Positions 138 through 7,900 of a DNA stretch of 12,050 nt are shown piece by piece. Where the stretch lies: IMG/VR virus record IMGVR_UViG_2908567220_000010; one strand, written 5' to 3'. The stretch comes from a virus (lineage: Duplodnaviria > Heunggongvirae > Uroviricota > Caudoviricetes). The translations under genes were made by a program, and so were the position numbers. The stretch's first letter is position 1, and each line of letters starts with the position of its first letter. Below the pieces are notes generated by a model, which was not told the DNA's origin, searched no databases, and saw only the letters and a list, made by a program, of their open reading frames with translations.

Positions 138-198
138 ATGCACTCTCGAAAGTGCATCAGCCAACCGCAGAACGTTATTGCATACAACGTTTCTGCGG
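138..198 (+). other. Two adjacent inverted repeats (possible RNA stem-loops) in the apparently non-coding left end
   Basis: Seen in sequence: atgcact (138-144) pairs with agtgcat (151-157), 7 bp stem and 6 nt loop; ccgcagaacgtt (165-176) pairs with aacgtttctgcgg (186-198), about 12 bp with one bulge. Neither is followed by a T-run on either strand, so they are not classical intrinsic terminators. Confidence 0.3.
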
Positions 199-395
199 CA
201 TAATCCCAATGATTACTCCCTGACAGGGTTCGTAGGCCACTCAATATCAGGTGCAGTTGATGTATCAACACGGTTCAGCAACACCCGATACTTTTTCCAG
301 GCTTCCAGCAACAAGGTTTCTTCCTCCGTTGCGATTTCCAGCTCAACAACAGTCTGAACGTACCGGGAACAGCCTCCTTCAGAACTTGAAGGATA

Positions 396-3300
396 TCAAT
401 GTTCGCTTCCTGTTAACTGCCGGACAAGTGCAACCAGTTCGCTTACCTGATTTTCCAGAGTGCTGATCCGGGTGTCTGCTGTTGCCAGATTTTCACGTAG
501 CGTTGTGTTTTCCTCTTCCAGCGCGGTAACGCGATCATCTGTTTCACGGGCGACCTGAACAAGTAAACCCGTCACGGCGGCGTAGTCAACATTAAGATAG
601 CGCGTTTCTTCGCGTAGCTCGTTGCCGTCAACGGTCGGGCCTTGCAACTCTTCACCGTAATGGATGAATGAACCAACGGCCTCCGGGATGGCCTCTTCAA
701 CTTCCTGTGCTATAACCCCGGCGCAATGTGCCCCATTCTCCTTGAGCGTGTACGTGTATCCATTAATTTTGCGGATTGCGTCAGTCGCGTTATCGATAAT
801 CTCGATATTTTCTTTCAGTCTGCGGTCTGATGACTGATTCAGTGTGGTGCAGTTAACACTTCCGTTTACAGTAAGGTTTTGCCCGTCTGTTGTTTTTTGC
901 GCATAAAACAGATACGCGGCAGACGTGCCAACCTCAAAAACGTTTTGACGAGTACTGGAACCCCACACCCTGACAGAAAACGGTAGTTCTGCATTACCTG
1001 AGTTCTGTAAAACAAAACGATTACCAGTCCCTGATTGCTTTGTAAGGGTTAAATCAACGGTTGAGTTAACCTCATTCCTGTTGATAGTGAGCGCCTGCGC
1101 TATAGCCCCGTTAACAGCACCTGTTTTGAGTTGAACCGCGCCGTCATTACCATTTAACAGTATCTCAGCTCCGCTAAAGAAATTTTTTAGCGACAGCATC
1201 TTACTTACGCCGGCTGATGAACCCAACGCCCACGCGAGAGAATTACCGGTGCTATCAAACCCACGTACAAAGCAATCCATTTTGCTATAGTCTGACGTGC
1301 TTCCAAGGACATCAATCCGCCCTCCGCCAGATTTTACCGGACTAGATGTGGTTAACGACCTGACAGTTATATCCTGATTCCATCCGGAAACAACAACCTG
1401 ACTCCACGCTGTCCAGTTTCCATTAACAACAAAGCGAACGTATATACGTTTTGTGTCGTTGCTGATCAGCGTTTGCATGTTCGCATAATCCGAAGCAGAA
1501 ACTTTGCGAGTCGACTCTACACGGAGCAAAAAGTTACCGGTTACACCGTCAGGCTTGTTGGTGATATTTGCACCACCTCCAGAGGATGGACAACTATAGT
1601 ATTTAACCGCCCCGGCATCTGACCTGATGGTCAGGTTGTTAAGATCAACCTTCTGGCCGCCAATGTTTTCCGGCTCGATAGCTCCTGCTATCCCGGCACT
1701 GAACGTAGCAGCGGCTGAAAACGCTGTCGTACCTTTGAAAGCCAGTTGACCACCAATCGTTAATCCCTTGTCGAGTTTCGCTTGCGTGATCAATTTGCTG
1801 TTTTGTTTCTGATCAGGACTCTCACCAAAAGCCAGATCCCCATTAGTATCAATTCCAAGATACTTTGGGTTCACGTTGTCTAACTTAAACCCAATGGACA
1901 CATTTTCAGAAGAACCAGAACGCGTTAAAACCAACGGCGTGTGCTGTGCTCCATAGATGCTGAGCGTAGTTGCCGATGAGTCAGTGTCGGTATTTGCAAT
2001 CTCAATCGTTCTGCTTTTAATTTTATACGCTACTGTGAGATCACGGACTTCAACCCTCCCGTCGTGACGAACAACAAGATCCCCTCCTGATGTCCCCCCT
2101 GCTGTCTTTGCCCTGATGCGAACTTCGCCAAGCGAATCAGTGTTAGGACCAGCATAGATTATGCCGCGCTCTGTGTTATCGCCAGTATAAAACCGCACAG
2201 CGGTGACTCCACTGTCTGCCCGCAGGAAGACTGACGGTGTACCTTTTTTGATTGTCAAGTCACCGGTCATTGTATCGCCGGTTTTTTTTACCTGCGCATC
2301 GTTCGTTACGTTGCCAAGTCCAACATCCGATTTCGACGGCTTGTTTGCCGAGCCGTATAGCTCATTGACGCTAAAAGTCCCGTTGTTAAGCCGGGCATCG
2401 GTGCCGGCATAGATCTTAATCTTCGCGGTTGAGTAGTCGATATTGATCGCTGACCACGTATCGCCGCACCGCGAGAATATACCAGAACCGTGGCTATAAA
2501 TGGTCGCCGTGCTTCCGGGCGGCTTATCACCGCGCCAGAAATGACCACCTTTGTCACGCAGAGCTTTTAAGATCTCTACATCGCTCATCTTGCCGTTTGT
2601 TGATATCCCGCTACCGCCAAGACCGAAAGCGCCTGTAAGCATAGCATTAGAAAGACCCAAATCTGCTTTAGTCGGCTTGTTTACCTGGTCGTAAATCCTT
2701 ACAACGTTGCCTTCAATATATCCAGAAGGCGCGGCGGTTTGCTTAACAAATCCGTCTGGAATGTATAATTCTGTGTTTAGTGTTGTCTGCGCCAGCACCG
2801 CAACCTTTGCGTCGTTAATAAACGCACCCTGGAATGCCCAAACCTCAATAAAGCCGTCACCTTTAACCAGGCCGTAACGCATCTGGTTGTTATCGGTCAG
2901 CCCGGTTGACCCTAAGCGGCGTATACTCAGATGACGAGAAACATTATCCGCACTAAGCAAAGAAGGCAGACCGCGCGCCGAGATCTCGATAAAGTCAATG
3001 TTTCCGTAAGGGGAGCCGTAGTTACCAGCGTTAGTAACCATTAGCGTTACATGACTTCTGCTGGTTCCAGGATCGGAAAGTTTCGCGATCTTGATGTAAA
3101 GAGACTCACTAGCAGTAACAACAGGCCAATCGTATTGCGTCATCGGGCTGACGAGTCCCCCGACCTTGTCGAGATATTCTTTCGCCTTGTTCTCTGACGC
3201 TTTAGCGTTGGTTTCGCTGACCTTTGCTGCTGACTCACTATTTTTCGCGTTGGTTTCTGATTTTTTGGCTGCTGTCGCGGAATTTGCCGATGCAGTTTGT

Positions 3301-4172
3301 GAGTCTGCTGCCGCCTGTGCGCTGTTATCCGCATTCGTCTCAGACGTTTTTGCGGCCTTCGCGGAATTTCCTGCCGCCGTTGCCGAGGAAGCTGCACTGC
3401 CGGCGCTCGAGGCTGCGCTCGTTTCTGATGATTTTGCCGCCACTTTTGAAGCCGACGCATCCCGGGCTGAGGTGGCAGCTTCTGACGCTTTCGTGGTCGC
3501 GGTGGATGCAGAAGTGGCCGCAGATTTTTGTGATGCTGCGGCATTCGTTTCTGACGTTTTCGCTGCACCGGCACTGGTGGCTGCCGCGCTTTTTGAAGAC
3601 TCTGCAGCGGCAGCACTTTTTGATGCTTCAGTGGCCTTTGCTGATGCCGTTCCTGCGCTGGAAGACGCTGACTGAGCCGACGAAGCGGCCTGTCCGGCTG
3701 ACGTGCTGGCTGCACGTGCTGAGCCTGCAGCATCAGTCGCATGGGTTGCCGCCTCACGGGCTGATGTGCTGGCATCGCTGGCTGACTTCTTTGCGGCAGC
3801 CGTGTTCTGTGCCACTGCGGACGCGTTATGCGCCACCTCTTCCACCATCAGTTCAAAGCGGCGCAGTGCCTCCGGACGGACATCATCCTCCGTCATGGCA
3901 CCGAGAAAATCATTCAGCGTACCCGGTTGTGAGTCTTCATACACGGTGATGGTCCCGGCATGCGATGGCGGGAAGCCTTCCACCAACAGAATAACGCTGT
4001 ACTGACCGTACTCAACGTCCATGCTGTAACGCCCGGCTTCATCCGGATTTTCTGAGGCCACCGTGTTCGCCACCACCGTGGTGCTGTTACGTTTTGCTTT
4101 CAGCTGGATTGTGCAGTTCTGTACCGGTTTACCTGCACCGTCTTTCAGTACACCTGAAATCTTTACTGCCAT
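396..4172 (-). CDS. stf: Side tail fibre protein, chimeric: lambda Stf-like N-terminus, Ala/Ser/Thr-rich fibrous repeats, large distal domain, C-terminal intramolecular-chaperone (peptidase S74-like) domain
   Basis: Single 1260-codon ORF in the track. The track starts it at a GTG (4176-4178), but the ATG two codons in (4170-4172) gives MAVKISGVLKDG..., which matches the N-terminus of lambda Stf (orf-401) and Rac StfR as I recall them, so I place the start at 4172 (1258 aa). A GGGG motif lies 5 nt upstream. Residues about 118-333 are low-complexity A/S/T-rich with recurring KxSETNA units. GDTMTG (aa 634-639, nt 2262-2279) and KxDLGLxN motifs are typical of phage tail fibres. The C-terminal 144 aa start SDRRLKENIEIID...GVIAQEVEEAIPEAV, characteristic of auto-cleaving chaperone domains. 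Stop TGA at 396-398. Confidence 0.9.
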   Translation of the reverse strand: MAVKISGVLKDGAGKPVQNCTIQLKAKRNSTTVVANTVASENPDEAGRYSMDVEYGQYSVILLVEGFPPSHAGTITVYEDSQPGTLNDFLGAMTEDDVRPEALRRFELMVEEVAHNASAVAQNTAAAKKSASDASTSAREAATHATDAAGSARAASTSAGQAASSAQSASSSAGTASAKATEASKSAAAAESSKSAAATSAGAAKTSETNAAASQKSAATSASTATTKASEAATSARDASASKVAAKSSETSAASSAGSAASSATAAGNSAKAAKTSETNADNSAQAAADSQTASANSATAAKKSETNAKNSESAAKVSETNAKASENKAKEYLDKVGGLVSPMTQYDWPVVTASESLYIKIAKLSDPGTSRSHVTLMVTNAGNYGSPYGNIDFIEISARGLPSLLSADNVSRHLSIRRLGSTGLTDNNQMRYGLVKGDGFIEVWAFQGAFINDAKVAVLAQTTLNTELYIPDGFVKQTAAPSGYIEGNVVRIYDQVNKPTKADLGLSNAMLTGAFGLGGSGISTNGKMSDVEILKALRDKGGHFWRGDKPPGSTATIYSHGSGIFSRCGDTWSAINIDYSTAKIKIYAGTDARLNNGTFSVNELYGSANKPSKSDVGLGNVTNDAQVKKTGDTMTGDLTIKKGTPSVFLRADSGVTAVRFYTGDNTERGIIYAGPNTDSLGEVRIRAKTAGGTSGGDLVVRHDGRVEVRDLTVAYKIKSRTIEIANTDTDSSATTLSIYGAQHTPLVLTRSGSSENVSIGFKLDNVNPKYLGIDTNGDLAFGESPDQKQNSKLITQAKLDKGLTIGGQLAFKGTTAFSAAATFSAGIAGAIEPENIGGQKVDLNNLTIRSDAGAVKYYSCPSSGGGANITNKPDGVTGNFLLRVESTRKVSASDYANMQTLISNDTKRIYVRFVVNGNWTAWSQVVVSGWNQDITVRSLTTSSPVKSGGGRIDVLGSTSDYSKMDCFVRGFDSTGNSLAWALGSSAGVSKMLSLKNFFSGAEILLNGNDGAVQLKTGAVNGAIAQALTINRNEVNSTVDLTLTKQSGTGNRFVLQNSGNAELPFSVRVWGSSTRQNVFEVGTSAAYLFYAQKTTDGQNLTVNGSVNCTTLNQSSDRRLKENIEIIDNATDAIRKINGYTYTLKENGAHCAGVIAQEVEEAIPEAVGSFIHYGEELQGPTVDGNELREETRYLNVDYAAVTGLLVQVARETDDRVTALEEENTTLRENLATADTRISTLENQVSELVALVRQLTGSEH
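399..830 (-). other. Predicted C-terminal intramolecular chaperone / autoproteolytic domain of the side tail fibre (peptidase S74-like)
   Basis: Last 144 residues of stf (aa 1117-1260). The conserved Ser-Asp followed by RRLKENI, then a GxxAQEVEE acidic helix and a coiled-coil-like tail (ALEEENTTLRENLATADTRISTLENQVSELVALV), fits the family found at the C-terminus of endosialidase tailspikes and the T5 L-shaped tail fibre, where cleavage occurs at the conserved Ser. Domain assignment is from motif recognition only. Confidence 0.65.
3180..3827 (-). repeat. In-frame degenerate repeat tract inside stf encoding Ala/Ser/Thr-rich units
   Basis: Protein residues about 118-333 are almost only A/S/T/K/E/N with recurring AAKTSETNA, KKSETNAKNSE, VSETNAKASE units. 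At the DNA level there are imperfect copies such as gcattcgtctcagacgtttttgc (about 3333-3355) and gcattcgtttctgacgttttcgc (about 3542-3564). The repetitive codon structure also explains the long antisense and out-of-frame ORFs reported on the + strand here. Confidence 0.7.
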
Positions 4173-4184
4173 ATTCACCCCACA

Positions 4185-4210
4185 AAAAAGCCCGCCTGAA
4201 CCGGCGGGCT
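4185..4210 (-). terminator. Rho-independent terminator downstream of lom (minus-strand orientation)
   Basis: On the minus strand: AGCCCGCC-GTTCA-GGCGGGCT (perfect 8 bp GC-rich stem, 5 nt loop) followed directly by TTTTT then G. It lies 27 nt after the lom stop and just before the stf start. On the + strand the hairpin has no T-run, so it is unidirectional. Confidence 0.7.
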
Positions 4211-4236: not shown

Positions 4237-4836
4237 TCAGAACTTATAACCAACACCCACGATGAAACCGTCAGTGCGCCAGTCGCCACTGCCGGAGCCT
4301 TCATAAGCAATATCAATGGCCACGGATTCGGTCGGGTTAAACTGCACGCCAGCCCCCCACGCCAGAGACGTGTTGCTGTGGCGACCATCATCACTTCCGG
4401 TCAGCACTTCGTGCGTTTTCCCCTTGTTGTCAGTTACGCGGAGATAATCCCCGGAGAAAGTAGAAATACGGCTGTAAGCCACACCCGCCATCGCATACGC
4501 GCTGAACCATTCATTCACGCGCACAGACGGCCCCGCCATCACGCTGAACCAGCGGTTACGCACGGAATCCTCATGCCAGCGGGTATCGCTGTAATGCGTT
4601 TTTTGCTCATCTTCAGCGTTGGCATAACTGAATGACGTAATCAGCCCCAGCGTGTCCGTAAACTCATAACGGTATTTCACGTTAATCCCGTTCAGATTAT
4701 CGCTGCCGGGAGCGTTCGTACGGGCATGAAGATACCCCGCGCTCAGTGTGGACTGATGTTCAGACGCCCATGCAGGCGCACCGGATACGGCCAGACAGAT
4801 GGCTGCGGACAAAATGGCTGCACAAACTTTACGCAT
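4237..4836 (-). CDS. lom: Lom, outer-membrane beta-barrel protein of the Ail/Lom/PagC family (lysogenic-conversion moron)
   Basis: 199-aa ORF. N-terminal signal peptide MRKVCAAILSAAICLAVSGAPAWA with an AxA cleavage motif, C-terminal ...GVGYKF ending in Phe as in outer-membrane beta-barrels, and alternating hydrophobic/aromatic strands. It sits between J and stf exactly as lom does in lambda. SD GAGAGG lies 5 nt upstream of the ATG (plus-strand 4842-4847). Confidence 0.93.
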   Translation of the reverse strand: MRKVCAAILSAAICLAVSGAPAWASEHQSTLSAGYLHARTNAPGSDNLNGINVKYRYEFTDTLGLITSFSYANAEDEQKTHYSDTRWHEDSVRNRWFSVMAGPSVRVNEWFSAYAMAGVAYSRISTFSGDYLRVTDNKGKTHEVLTGSDDGRHSNTSLAWGAGVQFNPTESVAIDIAYEGSGSGDWRTDGFIVGVGYKF

Positions 4837-4860: not shown

Positions 4861-4884
4861 AAAAAAGGCGCCAGAAATGGCGCC
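4861..4884 (-). terminator. Rho-independent terminator between J and lom (minus-strand orientation)
   Basis: On the minus strand: GGCGCCA-TTTC-TGGCGCC (7 bp stem, 4 nt loop) followed by TTTTTT, about 20 nt after the J stop codon. Confidence 0.65.
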
Positions 4885-4904
4885 CGCATATGGGTTATGA
4901 AAAT

Positions 4905-7900
4905 TCAGCTAATCGTGATACCTGCTGTGGATTTCTTCATCACCACAACCAGCAAATCACTGATACTGGCTGTGGGATACCAGTCATTTACCAGCCACGC
5001 TGATACCGAAAACTCCAGCGTCATGTGACCGCGACCGGCAGGCATATCAATAACACCTGTATAAACCAGCGTATTATCCAGCGCGGTACGGTTATAAATT
5101 TCAGCACCGTTTTTCTTCACTATCAGGCGGCATGACGAATAAATATCGTTATTCTCCCGCTCATGTTTAGCGCCACGAAACGCCACCGCGGGAATAACAA
5201 TCTGCCGGTCAAACGGCTGATCGTCATAAACCCTGACGGTAATGGTCCCTGATGGCCACCGCTCCGGTGCACGGGAGTCCCGGGGGAAAGCTTTGCCCAC
5301 TGTTTTAACGAGATCGCCTTCAATCTGGTTCGCAGACAGTTTTCCCAGAACCCGACAGTTTTCATTAATCGTGACGTTGTTGAGCGTCCCGGCGTTCGCA
5401 TTCACGTTACCGCTGATATCCGCATTTTTAGCAGTCAGCTTTCCGTCCGGTGTCAGGGAAAATGCCGGTGGATTTCCACCGCTGGTAATGGTGGGGGCCG
5501 TCAGGCGTTTCAGGAACACTTCGTTCATGAATATCTGATCGCCCTGCCCAACAAACATCGGCTTTGTGTTGCCATTCGCAGGATTAATCATCGCAATCCT
5601 GTCTGCCGCCAGCAGCACCTGACTCTGCATGCCGTCAGGGGTGTTCTCAATACCGGCACCAATACCCGCGATATAAAGGCGTCCGTCCTGCATCTGCTGC
5701 AGCTTCACAGCCCACATGCTGTTCAGGTTATTATTTGTATCAACCTGAACCTTCTGTATCTGCTGAATTGCCGCACTCTGGTCTTCCAGTTTCTTATTGA
5801 CGGTCTGTGTGATTTCATTGCTGACATCCGTAATGGATGTCCTGATTTCAGCCAGGTCAGGCGCAAGCTGACCGTTATCAATCTGCGTCCACAGCTCCTG
5901 AGCCAGATGGGTTTTCCCTATCTCGCCTTTGAAAAAATCCAGATAGCCGGATGCGTCATCACTCGGCTGACCAACAGCCTCCACGAATGCCGATTTGCCA
6001 ACGGTGTTCACACTGCGAACGTAAAAATAATAATTATGGCCCGGCCTGATATTGATACTGGCGGCTATCCAGTACAACGCCGTACCAAGATAGCGTGCTG
6101 TGGTTTCAACCTGCCTGATATCCGCAATCCGCTTTTCCGAGAACCAGAACTCAAACTGTACCGTCGGATCATAAACCGCAAGATGCGGCGTGGCGGTTAT
6201 CTGAAAATAGCCCGGCGTCAGCTCAATCCGAGACGGCGCTGCCGGTGCGGCAATCCGGAACGATACCGATGCCGGATCGCCCTGCTGTCCCCACGCATTT
6301 ACCGCCCGGACTGTCAGCCTGTAATTCCCCAGCGCCAGTTGCGTGAAGCGGTATGTGGTTTCCGTCGTCCGGGCCGTGCTGACCAGCCGCTCACTGCCGT
6401 CATCCGCTGCCACGGTCAGGCGAAGCAGGAAGCTCACGCCCTTCACCACCTTCGGCGTGTCCCAGCGGGCCAGCACCTGGTATTCCCCGCTGTCTGCGGT
6501 GACTTCTGCGGTCAGGTGCTGCACTGCTGGCGGCGTGACACCATTCACCGTGCCGCTCTGGTCGCCGTCAAAGTGCGCCCCGTTATCCACGATGGCCTCT
6601 TTTTCCGGTACATGCTGCACGGCGGTGATGGCATACGTGCCGTCATCGTTCTCACGGATACTCACGCAGCGGAACAGGCGCTGGCGCAGCGTCGGCAGCT
6701 TCAGCCCCCACACGCTGTACTCGGCAACGCCGTCAGGAACCCGGCTCACTTTCACCTTCACGCCGTCGGTGACGGACTGGACCTCCACGCTGACCGGATT
6801 GCCACTTCCGTCAACCAGGCTTATCAGCGTGGTGCCGGAGGATGGCAGCGTGATTTCACGGTCGAGCGTCAGCGTCCGGGTCTGGCTGTTCACCGCCAGC
6901 ACGCGCCCGCCGGTGCTGATACCGGCATAGTCATCATCGCAGATTTCAATGACATCGCCCGGTACATGGCGAAGCCCTTCTGCGCCGACGCTGAAATCCA
7001 CGGTCTGCGTCTCCAGCAGTTCTGTTTTAATCAGCCACAGCCCGGCGCGGTGCGCCTGCCCCCGACTGGTACAGCCAAACGCATCCATCTTCGTGACGTT
7101 ACGACCGTAACGGGCAATGGCCTGCGAGTCCTCCACAAGCTCTGTTGCCGTCTCCCAGCCGTTATCCGGGTCAATCCAGTTCACTTCAACGGCATTATGG
7201 CGGTCTTTCAGGGCGCTGAAGCTGTAGCGGAATGGTGCGCCATCATCCGGCATCACCACATTACTGCGGTTATAGGTCCACACCTTATCTGATGGTCGGT
7301 CCTGCACGAACGTCAGCGTCTGCCCGTTCCATACCGGCATACAGCGCATCGCCGAGCAGAAATCACTGAGCACATCCCACGCCTTGCGCTGTGTGGTCAG
7401 GTACGCATTACAGGTGATGCGCGGCTCCGTGCCGCCAAAGCCGTCCGGCACCGACTGGTCGCAGTACTGGCCGATGACATACAGCGCCCATTTATCCACA
7501 TCCGCCGCACCAAGACGTTTCCCCATGCCGTAGCGCGGATGGGTCAGCATATCCCACAGACACCAGGCCATGTTGTTGCTGTATGCCGGTTTAAACGTTC
7601 CGTCCCAGATACCGCTGTATTGCCGCGTCTGCGGGTTATAGTTCGACGGCACCTGCAGAATACGCCCGCGCAGATGATAATTACGGCTCACCTGCTGGCT
7701 GCCGAACTGCTCCGAGTCCACCTGCACGCCGACCAGTGCCGTGTTCGGGTAGCACTGTTTCACATCGATAATTTCGGTGTATGACGACCAGAGCGTTTTG
7801 TTCTGCAGCTGGTCTGTGGTGCTGTCCGGCGTCATCCTGCGCATCCGGATACTGAACGGGCGCGGCGGCAGGTTATCCACCACCACCGAGGCCAGATACT

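What the first reader, a model, noticed from the sequence alone, without database searches (positions are those of the whole stretch)
396..4172. Chimeric side tail fibre: lambda Stf head joined to a long fibre with its own C-terminal chaperone
The first ~115 residues match lambda Stf, the part that attaches side fibres to the virion. The remainder is a ~1140-aa fibre quite unlike lambda Stf: an A/S/T-rich repeat shaft, a large distal domain with GDTMTG and KxDLGLxN tail-fibre motifs, and a C-terminal domain of the self-cleaving intramolecular-chaperone type. By inspection the distal part also looks more AT-rich than the lambda-like core genes, consistent with horizontal acquisition of the 3' portion. 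Such N-terminal-anchor / C-terminal-swap mosaics are how lambdoid phages change adsorption specificity, so this gene is the likeliest determinant of what this phage binds.
Basis: partly seen in the sequence, partly recalled or inferred. Interest (0 to 1): 0.55.

Follow-up and report, generated by a model that had tools for sequence, protein, structure and literature searches.

The report
Mosaic lambda/T5-like self-chaperoned side tail fibre
This is an intact side tail fibre gene of a lambda-like E. coli prophage, built from a lambda-type attachment end, a phage-T5-like shaft, an exchangeable tip and a self-cleaving folding domain; it is a common, database-annotated but experimentally uncharacterised kind of host-range gene, not a surprise.

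Summary
The ORF is real: window 396-4172, minus strand, 1258 aa, downstream of H-M-L-K-I-J-lom in a lambda-like tail cluster. It is a mosaic side tail fibre with a C-terminal S74 intramolecular chaperone and an AT-richer distal part.

Lambda Stf homology runs to about aa 280 (86% identity), not about 115.

- aa ~281-943 are homologous to the phage T5 L-shaped tail fibre pb1 (57% identity).
- The crossover lies in a stretch shared by lambda Stf and pb1 (aa 241-280).
- aa 944-1114 are a separate tip cassette, shared with phages mEp460, FritzHoffmann and slur09 and swapped independently between alleles.
- aa 1115-1258 are the chaperone, with the Ser1115/Lys1120 dyad conserved.
- A 48-codon remnant of tfa sits just downstream, marking the replaced lambda-type stf-tfa cassette.

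Phage Ayreon has a collinear 80%-identical fibre. 306 of 5426 complete E. coli genomes carry the distal part.

The receptor is not determined; a surface glycan such as O-antigen is inferred. Both monomer AlphaFold2 models failed. This is an ordinary member of a known kind, of low interest.

The parts
396..4172 (-). Complete stf-type side tail fibre CDS: 1258 aa, ATG at 4170-4172, stop at 396-398.
   Evidence: ORF list and translation. The start matches the lambda Stf start MAVKISG. dN/dS is 0.3-0.4 against other alleles.
3891..4172 (-). aa 1-94: collar (virion-attachment) domain of lambda Stf type.
   Evidence: 87 of 94 residues are identical to the solved lambda Stf N-terminal domain, PDB 9e7m. 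It lies within Pfam phage_tail_N, aa 1-134, E 4e-71. In Ur-lambda this domain forms a 12-copy collar at the gpV/gpM junction (PMC12617516).
3168..3869 (-). aa ~102-335: A/S/T-rich proximal shaft, inferred to be a trimeric coiled coil.
   Evidence: aa 135-280 are 84% identical to lambda Stf. Lambda residues 102-393 were modelled as a coiled coil (PMC12617516). No DNA tandem repeat was found.
3333..3452 (-). aa 241-280: left crossover zone, a stretch shared by lambda Stf and T5 pb1 (..SSATAAxNSA[K/R]AAKTSETN).
   Evidence: In a 20-aa sliding window, lambda identity is 0.80-0.90 here and falls to 0.60, 0.30 and 0.20 afterwards. T5 pb1 identity rises from 0.05 to 0.75-0.80 at aa 241 and stays high.
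1344..3332 (-). aa 281-943: shaft and knob region homologous to the phage T5 L-shaped tail fibre pb1 (pb1 ~aa 150-806). It contains the GDTMTG and KxD[LV]GLxN motifs.
   Evidence: 57% identity to T5 pb1 over 663 aa. tblastn finds T5, Salmonella T5-like phages and Klebsiella phages at 54-60% over aa 306-958. PHROG 24369 matches at E 1.5e-291. There is no Pfam or PDB sequence match.
831..1343 (-). aa 944-1114: distal tip cassette, the presumed receptor-binding end after chaperone removal.
   Evidence: It is not T5-like (27% identity in a forced alignment). Identity is 88% to mEp460 Stf, 76% to FritzHoffmann, 74% to vB_EcoS-640R1 and 64% to the T5-like phage slur09. dS is 0.46 here against about 0.03 in the flanks, comparing the window with L001 and L007. 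aa ~1059-1100 resemble a T4 gp34 fibre module (profile E 3e-7).
399..830 (-). aa 1115-1258: S74 intramolecular chaperone with a C-terminal coiled coil. The predicted scissile bond is Ser1114|Ser1115 (Ser1115 codon 828-830, Lys1120 codon 813-815).
   Evidence: Pfam PF13884 scores 60.2 bits against a cut-off of 22. PDB 6f45 (S16 gp37 chaperone) matches at E 2.5e-9 to 4e-8. S1115, D1116, L1119 and K1120 are invariant in 26 homologues. The T5 pb1 equivalents are Ser1264 and Lys1269, with cleavage at Thr1263|Ser1264 (PMC4690869). The helix at aa ~1197-1254 is the only confident part of the AF2 model.
216..359 (-). Remnant of tfa (tail fibre assembly chaperone): the last 48 codons only, with no start codon.
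   Evidence: tblastn gives 79% identity to lambda Tfa aa 147-194. The same Tfa-147 breakpoint lies downstream of stf in Ayreon, mEp460, L001 and L002.
4189..4210 (-). Intrinsic-terminator-like hairpin plus T-run between lom and stf.
   Evidence: Consensus scan: 8-bp stem with 7 GC pairs, followed by TTTTTT. RNA fold gives -22.3 kcal/mol, z -2.2. The equivalent site is annotated as a terminator in Ayreon and mEp460.

Best explanation
The gene encodes a homotrimeric side (lateral) tail fibre of a lambda-like temperate siphovirus. It was assembled by recombination from four modules.

1. aa 1-94 form the lambda Stf collar domain, which fastens the fibre to the tail tube/tip junction. aa ~102-335 continue as the Stf-type coiled-coil shaft.
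2. At a stretch shared by lambda Stf and T5 pb1 (aa 241-280), the sequence switches to a T5 L-shaped-tail-fibre-like shaft with knob region (to aa ~943).
3. aa 944-1114 are an exchangeable distal tip that makes the first, reversible contact with the cell. The target is most probably a surface polysaccharide (O-antigen or LPS), as for T5-type lateral fibres. This contact would speed adsorption before J binds its outer-membrane receptor.
4. aa 1115-1258 are an S74 intramolecular chaperone. It trimerises, templates folding of the tip, and then cuts itself off at Ser1114|Ser1115 using Ser1115 and Lys1120. No separate Tfa chaperone is then needed, which explains why tfa survives only as a 48-codon stump.

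Shown here: the ORF, the homologies, the junctions, the conserved catalytic residues, the tfa stump, the GC shift, purifying selection and tip-cassette exchange.

Inferred: trimer state, autocleavage, four fibres per virion and the nature of the receptor.
For: - Gene order H-M-L-K-I-J-lom-stf matches lambda, Ayreon and mEp460.
- The collar domain is 92.6% identical to the solved lambda structure.
- Lambda identity is 86% over aa 1-280, then collapses. T5 pb1 identity is 57% over aa 281-943.
- S74 Pfam and PDB matches, with the Ser-x4-Lys dyad invariant in 26 homologues. The mechanism is known from T5 pb1 (PMC4690869).
- The tfa remnant has the same breakpoint in five loci.
- GC3 is 0.48 in the distal part against 0.64-0.70 in the core tail genes.
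- dN/dS is 0.3-0.4. The ORF is intact in L001, L002 and L007, and a viable phage (Ayreon) carries a collinear 80%-identical gene.
- The tip is far more diverged than its flanks between otherwise near-identical alleles.
- Lateral fibres of T5-like and small siphoviruses bind O-antigen. Ur-lambda Stf helps overcome the O16 O-antigen (PMC8594841; PMC11990801).
Against: - No experiment or structure for this protein or any close relative was found.
- Both monomer AF2 models were unusable (pLDDT 51 and 33). The fold of the shaft and tip is therefore untested.
- The tip is not homologous to the T5 pb1 polymannose-binding domain, so T5's receptor cannot be transferred.
- Lambda's own Stf is reported to bind a protein, OmpC.
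- The window covers only the tail end of the prophage, so it is unknown whether the prophage as a whole is functional.
Confidence: 0.8

Rival explanations
1. Same fibre architecture, but the tip binds an outer-membrane protein, as lambda Stf binds OmpC, rather than a polysaccharide.
For: Ur-lambda Stf is reported to bind OmpC (PMC12617516). Tip relatives occur in phages isolated on O-antigen-less K-12: Ayreon and FritzHoffmann. No carbohydrate-binding domain was detected; CBM_6 scores only E 0.39.
Against: The distal part of lambda Stf that contacts OmpC is absent here. T5-type lateral fibres characteristically bind O-antigen. Growth on K-12 does not require lateral fibres.
Confidence: 0.25
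2. The gene is a decaying relic of a defective prophage and makes no functional fibre.
For: RefSeq often annotates it as a pseudogene plus fragments. Some genomes have IS elements in or beside it. In MEI008 (L008) no full-length ORF beginning with the Stf start (MAVKISG) was found.
Against: The ORF is intact here and in L001, L002 and L007, despite their split annotation. dN/dS is 0.3-0.4. The catalytic residues are invariant. A plaque-forming phage carries the collinear homologue.
Confidence: 0.08
3. It is an enzymatic tailspike (depolymerase, like the endosialidases) rather than a passive fibre.
For: The S74 chaperone was first described on endosialidase tailspikes; Pfam names it 'Chaperone of endosialidase'.
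Against: No glycosidase, lyase or beta-helix family was detected anywhere in aa 336-1114. The best relatives are non-enzymatic fibres: T5 pb1, S16 gp37 and T4 gp34.
Confidence: 0.03

Closest known systems
Bacteriophage lambda (Ur-lambda) side tail fibre Stf (orf401/orf314) with Tfa
   Same: Same locus after J and lom. The collar domain is 92.6% identical and aa 1-280 are 86% identical, including the A/S/T-rich coiled-coil shaft. It presumably has the same attachment to the virion and the same role as an adsorption accelerator.
   Different: From aa ~281 there is no lambda homology. The gp37-like distal domain is absent. Folding relies on an in-cis S74 chaperone instead of Tfa, and tfa is reduced to its last 48 codons.
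[quoted passage not shown]
   Same: 57% identity over aa 281-943 (pb1 ~150-806), including the GDxMxG and KxD[LV]GLxN motifs. Both have a C-terminal self-cleaving chaperone with a Ser/Lys dyad.
   Different: The pb1 N-terminal attachment region is replaced by the lambda Stf collar. The pb1 bullet-shaped polymannose-binding domain (aa 970-1263) is not present: there is no PDB sequence match and only 27% identity in a forced alignment. The chaperone is closer to that of S16 gp37.
Side tail fibres of the lambdoid phages Ayreon (MF807953) and mEp460 (JQ182728)
   Same: Ayreon Stf is full-length collinear at 79.6% identity. mEp460 shares the N-terminus plus shaft (to aa ~335) and the tip plus chaperone (from aa ~934, 86-88% identity). 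Both have the same tfa stump downstream.
   Different: mEp460 has an unrelated middle section (16% identity over aa 336-943). Neither fibre has been studied functionally, as far as the papers searched show.
S74 intramolecular chaperone domains (K1F endosialidase, T5 pb1, S16 gp37, phi29/GA-1 appendages)
   Same: Pfam PF13884 match, C-terminal position, the SDxxxK motif and a following coiled coil.
   Different: It is attached to a different passenger (tip) domain. Cleavage has not been demonstrated.

Membership tests
Lambda-type side tail fibre (Stf; Pfam PF08400 phage_tail_N) | N-terminal collar/attachment domain homologous to lambda Stf aa 1-94. | tested here: met
   PF08400 at E 4e-71, 237.7 bits against a cut-off of 26.6. 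87 of 94 residues are identical to PDB 9e7m.
Lambda-type side tail fibre (Stf; Pfam PF08400 phage_tail_N) | Gene located after J and lom at the end of a lambda-like tail gene cluster. | tested here: met
   The ORF order H, M, L, K, I, J, lom, stf matches the annotated lambda, Ayreon, mEp460 and E. coli prophage loci. J is 83.5% identical to lambda J.
Lambda-type side tail fibre (Stf; Pfam PF08400 phage_tail_N) | Lambda-type distal receptor-binding part together with a separate downstream Tfa chaperone. | tested here: not met
   No significant similarity to lambda orf314 beyond low-complexity sequence. Only the last 48 codons of tfa remain.
T5 pb1 L-shaped tail fibre | Homology along the pb1 shaft. 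| tested here: met
   57% identity over aa 281-943. The BLASTP alignment covers aa 166-1039 at 839 bits.
T5 pb1 L-shaped tail fibre | pb1 N-terminal region that attaches the fibre to the T5 tail. | tested here: not met
   2% identity over aa 1-94. The N-terminus is lambda Stf.
T5 pb1 L-shaped tail fibre | Bullet-shaped polymannose-binding domain (pb1 aa 970-1263; PDB 4UW7/4UW8). | tested here: not met
   No PDB sequence hit to pb1 even at E<=10 or with a 26-sequence profile. Identity is 27% in a forced alignment. Fold-level similarity could not be tested because the AF2 model failed.
Peptidase S74 intramolecular chaperone | Match to PF13884 above the curated threshold, at the C-terminus of a fibre or spike. 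| tested here: met
   60.2 bits against a cut-off of 22, aa 1115-1166. PDB 6f45 also matches.
Peptidase S74 intramolecular chaperone | Conserved catalytic Ser and Lys (S-x4-K) at the domain boundary. | tested here: met
   SDRRLK at aa 1115-1120. S, D, L and K are invariant in 26 homologues. The motif aligns to SDRRIK of S16 gp37 and corresponds to Ser1264/Lys1269 of T5 pb1.
Peptidase S74 intramolecular chaperone | Autoproteolytic release after trimer folding. | not testable with these tools
   This requires protein expression with wild-type and S1115A variants.
Endosialidase-type tailspike / depolymerase | Catalytic glycosidase or lyase domain upstream of the chaperone. | tested here: not met
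   No such Pfam, NCBIfam or PDB match in aa 336-1114.

The most novel reading that the evidence does not exclude
The exchangeable tip (aa 944-1114) could be an uncharacterised receptor-binding fold. It circulates between temperate lambdoids, Queuovirinae (FritzHoffmann) and T5-like virulent phages (slur09). It may recognise a receptor that is neither T5's polymannose nor lambda's OmpC. The hybrid would also show that a T5-type lateral fibre can be mounted, presumably as four trimers, on a lambda-type collar.
Probability: 0.3. Interest if true: 0.35.

Novelty: new member of a known kind. Interest (0 to 1): 0.2.

Why it matters
The gene is probably the primary-adsorption (host-range) determinant of a prophage family present in about 6% of complete E. 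coli genomes. The mapped module boundaries are natural splice points for engineering lambda-type particles with new specificities without a separate chaperone gene. These boundaries are the shared motif at aa 241-280, the end of pb1 homology at aa ~934-943, and the Ser1114|Ser1115 cleavage site. The locus also illustrates gene flow between temperate lambdoid and virulent T5-like phages. None of this changes current understanding. Mosaic tail fibres with conserved N-terminal anchors and S74 chaperones are well established.

Tried and rejected
1. AlphaFold2 monomer of aa 900-1258 with a 26-sequence alignment gave mean pLDDT 51 and pTM 0.29. Only the C-terminal helix was confident.
2. AlphaFold2 monomer of aa 336-943 with a 14-sequence, shallow alignment gave mean pLDDT 33.
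   - Both models are too poor for fold searches, so none were run.
   - The protein-database searches returned only close E. coli relatives in the listed top 120.
   - T5-like sequences could not be added to the structure jobs.
3. NCBIfam gave no useful hit, so RefSeq's 'pyocin knob domain' label could not be verified here.
4. Pfam found nothing significant in aa 336-1114.
5. I suspected a real frameshift, as in lambda PaPa stf, because RefSeq splits the gene. I rejected this: the ORF is intact in L001, L002 and L007.
6. I considered a tandem DNA repeat in the shaft. I rejected this: TRF found only two trivial rows.
7. I considered transferring T5's polymannose (O8/O9) specificity. A few carrier strains are labelled O9, but I rejected the transfer. 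The tip is not pb1-like, and serotypes could not be cross-tabulated with these tools.
Full report
**Observation**

The window carries, on the minus strand, a lambda-like tail gene cluster: part of H, then M, L, K, I, J and lom. The same order is annotated in lambda, Ayreon, mEp460 and E. coli prophages.

An uninterrupted ORF follows at 396-4172, after a terminator-like hairpin at 4189-4210. It is 1258 aa, and its ATG gives the lambda Stf start MAVKISG.

Pfam finds phage_tail_N at aa 1-134 (E 4e-71) and Peptidase_S74 at aa 1115-1166 (E 2.5e-16).

The composition claim is right:

| Region | GC | GC3 |
|---|---|---|
| stf aa 281-1258 | 0.49 | 0.48 |
| stf aa 1-280 | 0.58 | 0.53 |
| J, L, M, H | 0.56-0.59 | 0.64-0.70 |

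BLASTP against lambda orf401 (the N-terminal part of Stf) aligns aa 1-348. Identity is 86% over aa 1-280 and 84% over aa 135-280, which is the A/S/T-rich shaft. The shaft is therefore lambda Stf sequence, not something unlike it.

In the Ur-lambda structure, residues 1-91 form the collar domain. There are twelve copies, that is four trimers, at the gpV/gpM junction. Residues 102-393 form a coiled coil (PMC12617516). The window protein is 87/94 identical to that solved domain. The shaft is not a DNA tandem repeat.

**The foreign part is T5-like**

tblastn against phage genomes and BLASTP show that aa ~281-943 are homologous to the L-shaped tail fibre pb1 of phage T5. Identity is 57% over 663 aa, and T5-like Salmonella phages reach 60%.

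A five-way alignment places the switch precisely:
- Lambda identity is 0.80-0.90 up to aa 280 and then falls to 0.60, 0.30 and 0.20.
- T5 identity jumps to 0.75-0.80 at aa 241 and stays there.

The 40 residues of overlap (..SSATAAxNSA[K/R]AAKTSETN) occur in both lambda Stf and pb1. This makes them the obvious substrate for homologous recombination. No Pfam or PDB sequence match exists for aa 336-943.

**Tip and chaperone**

pb1 similarity ends at about aa 943 (VVSGWNQDITVRSLTTS). From about aa 934 the sequence matches the otherwise different fibre of mEp460, at 88% over aa 944-1114.

The same tip occurs in FritzHoffmann (a BASEL Queuovirinae phage, 76%), vB_EcoS-640R1 (74%) and the T5-like phage slur09 (64%). 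Between the window and the alleles in L001 and L007, the tip has dS 0.46 while its flanks have about 0.03. It is therefore an independently exchanged cassette. This is what one expects of the specificity-determining end.

The last ~55 residues before the chaperone resemble a T4 gp34 fibre module (profile E 3e-7).

The chaperone (aa 1115-1258) matches the S16 gp37 chaperone (PDB 6f45) across the SDRR[L/I]K motif. S1115, D1116, L1119 and K1120 are invariant in 26 homologues. In T5 pb1 the equivalent Ser1264 and Lys1269 cut the Thr1263|Ser1264 bond after trimer folding, and only the cleaved protein competes with phage adsorption (PMC4690869). By analogy, cleavage here is predicted at Ser1114|Ser1115.

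**The tfa stump**

Immediately downstream, window 216-359 encodes the last 48 residues of a Tfa-like protein with no start codon. It is 79% identical to lambda Tfa aa 147-194. The same breakpoint at Tfa residue 147 follows stf in Ayreon, mEp460, L001 and L002.

So the right-hand junction of the replacement is old and shared. The cassette that brought an in-cis chaperone made the separate chaperone gene dispensable.

**Is it functional and how common is it?**

The distal part (≥80% coverage) is present in 306 of 5426 complete E. coli genomes. The whole window at ≥80% coverage is present in 231 genomes.

RefSeq often annotates the gene as an N-terminal pseudogene plus a 'pyocin knob domain-containing S74 family peptidase'. 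The ORF is nevertheless intact in all three such loci checked. dN/dS is 0.3-0.4.

Phage Ayreon, a plaque-forming temperate phage, has a collinear fibre at 79.6% identity. No paper found in the searches analyses this fibre type functionally.

**Mechanism**

*Shown:* the module map, the junctions, the conserved catalytic dyad, the tfa stump, the composition shift, purifying selection and tip exchange.

*Inferred from named homologues:*
- trimeric state;
- attachment through a lambda-type collar;
- chaperone-templated folding followed by autocleavage;
- reversible primary adsorption through the exposed tip.

I favour a surface glycan (O-antigen or LPS) as receptor. T5-type and small-siphovirus lateral fibres characteristically bind O-antigen, and Ur-lambda Stf helps overcome O16 (PMC8594841; PMC11990801). 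This point is the weakest, because the tip is not the pb1 polymannose-binding domain and lambda Stf binds OmpC. An outer-membrane protein receptor remains a serious rival. A dead relic or an enzymatic tailspike is unlikely.

**What failed**

Two AlphaFold2 monomer models had pLDDT 51 and 33. This is expected for intertwined trimers with shallow alignments. No fold search was attempted.

**Verdict**

The breakpoints were misplaced, and the distal part is itself a mosaic of T5-like shaft, exchangeable tip and S74 chaperone. The architecture is already present in sequenced phages and hundreds of genomes, and it follows well-known principles of tail-fibre modularity. It is a new member of a known kind, of low interest.

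Noticed in passing
L001 3238-7017, L007 662-4441, L008 2850-6626 (equivalent to window 396-4172): RefSeq (PGAP) annotates this gene in many E. coli genomes as an N-terminal 'pseudogene' plus a separate 'pyocin knob domain-containing S74 family peptidase' or 'tail fiber domain-containing protein'. In L007 about 2 kb between the two is left unannotated. The reading frame is nevertheless continuous (1272 codons between stops) in L001, L002 and L007, so the split is an annotation artefact. In L008 no full-length ORF beginning with the Stf start (MAVKISG) was found.
   Followed up: partly
window 4905-5980 (J codons ~801-1159): J is 94-100% identical to lambda J over aa 1-800. It drops to 36-77% over the C-terminal ~360 aa, where GC3 also falls from 0.72 to 0.53-0.60. 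The central fibre's receptor-binding end is thus a second swapped module and probably does not use lambda's LamB site.
   Followed up: partly
window 3140-3775 (-), 3166-3675 (+), 3224-3949 (+): Long overlapping ORFs (169-241 aa) occur in other frames and on the opposite strand within the A/S/T-rich shaft. They match the position of lambda's annotated 'orf206b'. They are most likely a by-product of the Ala/Ser/Thr codon composition rather than genes.
   Followed up: no
L009 4001-4393 (plasmid p92_MLI108-1, NZ_CP116989.1); window ~1357-1749: A 393-bp piece of the knob region just before the tip is 93.6% identical at DNA level to part of a 1446-aa tail fibre gene. That gene is followed by a tfa gene and lies on a 92-kb plasmid carrying phage tail genes. 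This points to module exchange with a phage-plasmid.
   Followed up: partly
L002 1-2683: In strain 300081 a GtrA/GtrB/type-specific glycosyltransferase (O-antigen glucosylation) cassette lies next to the tfa stumps beside this fibre gene. Whether it belongs to the same prophage was not determined. If it does, it would fit an O-antigen-directed fibre with seroconversion-based exclusion.
   Followed up: no
window 4866-4885 and 4189-4210 (-): lom (4237-4836) is bracketed by two strong terminator-like hairpins, as annotated in Ayreon and mEp460. This is consistent with lom being an independently expressed moron within the late operon.
   Followed up: no
window 165-199: A perfect ~12-bp inverted repeat (GCCGCAGAACGTT...AACGTTCTGCGG type) with no T-run lies downstream of the tfa stump in otherwise non-coding sequence. 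In the related locus L008 the equivalent side leads to integrase remnants and an IS2.
   Followed up: no
hits H41 and H73: In some genomes IS2/IS3-family elements are annotated within the matched stretch. In H73 the match to the fibre gene itself is broken into pieces around one. Some copies may therefore be truly inactivated.
   Followed up: no
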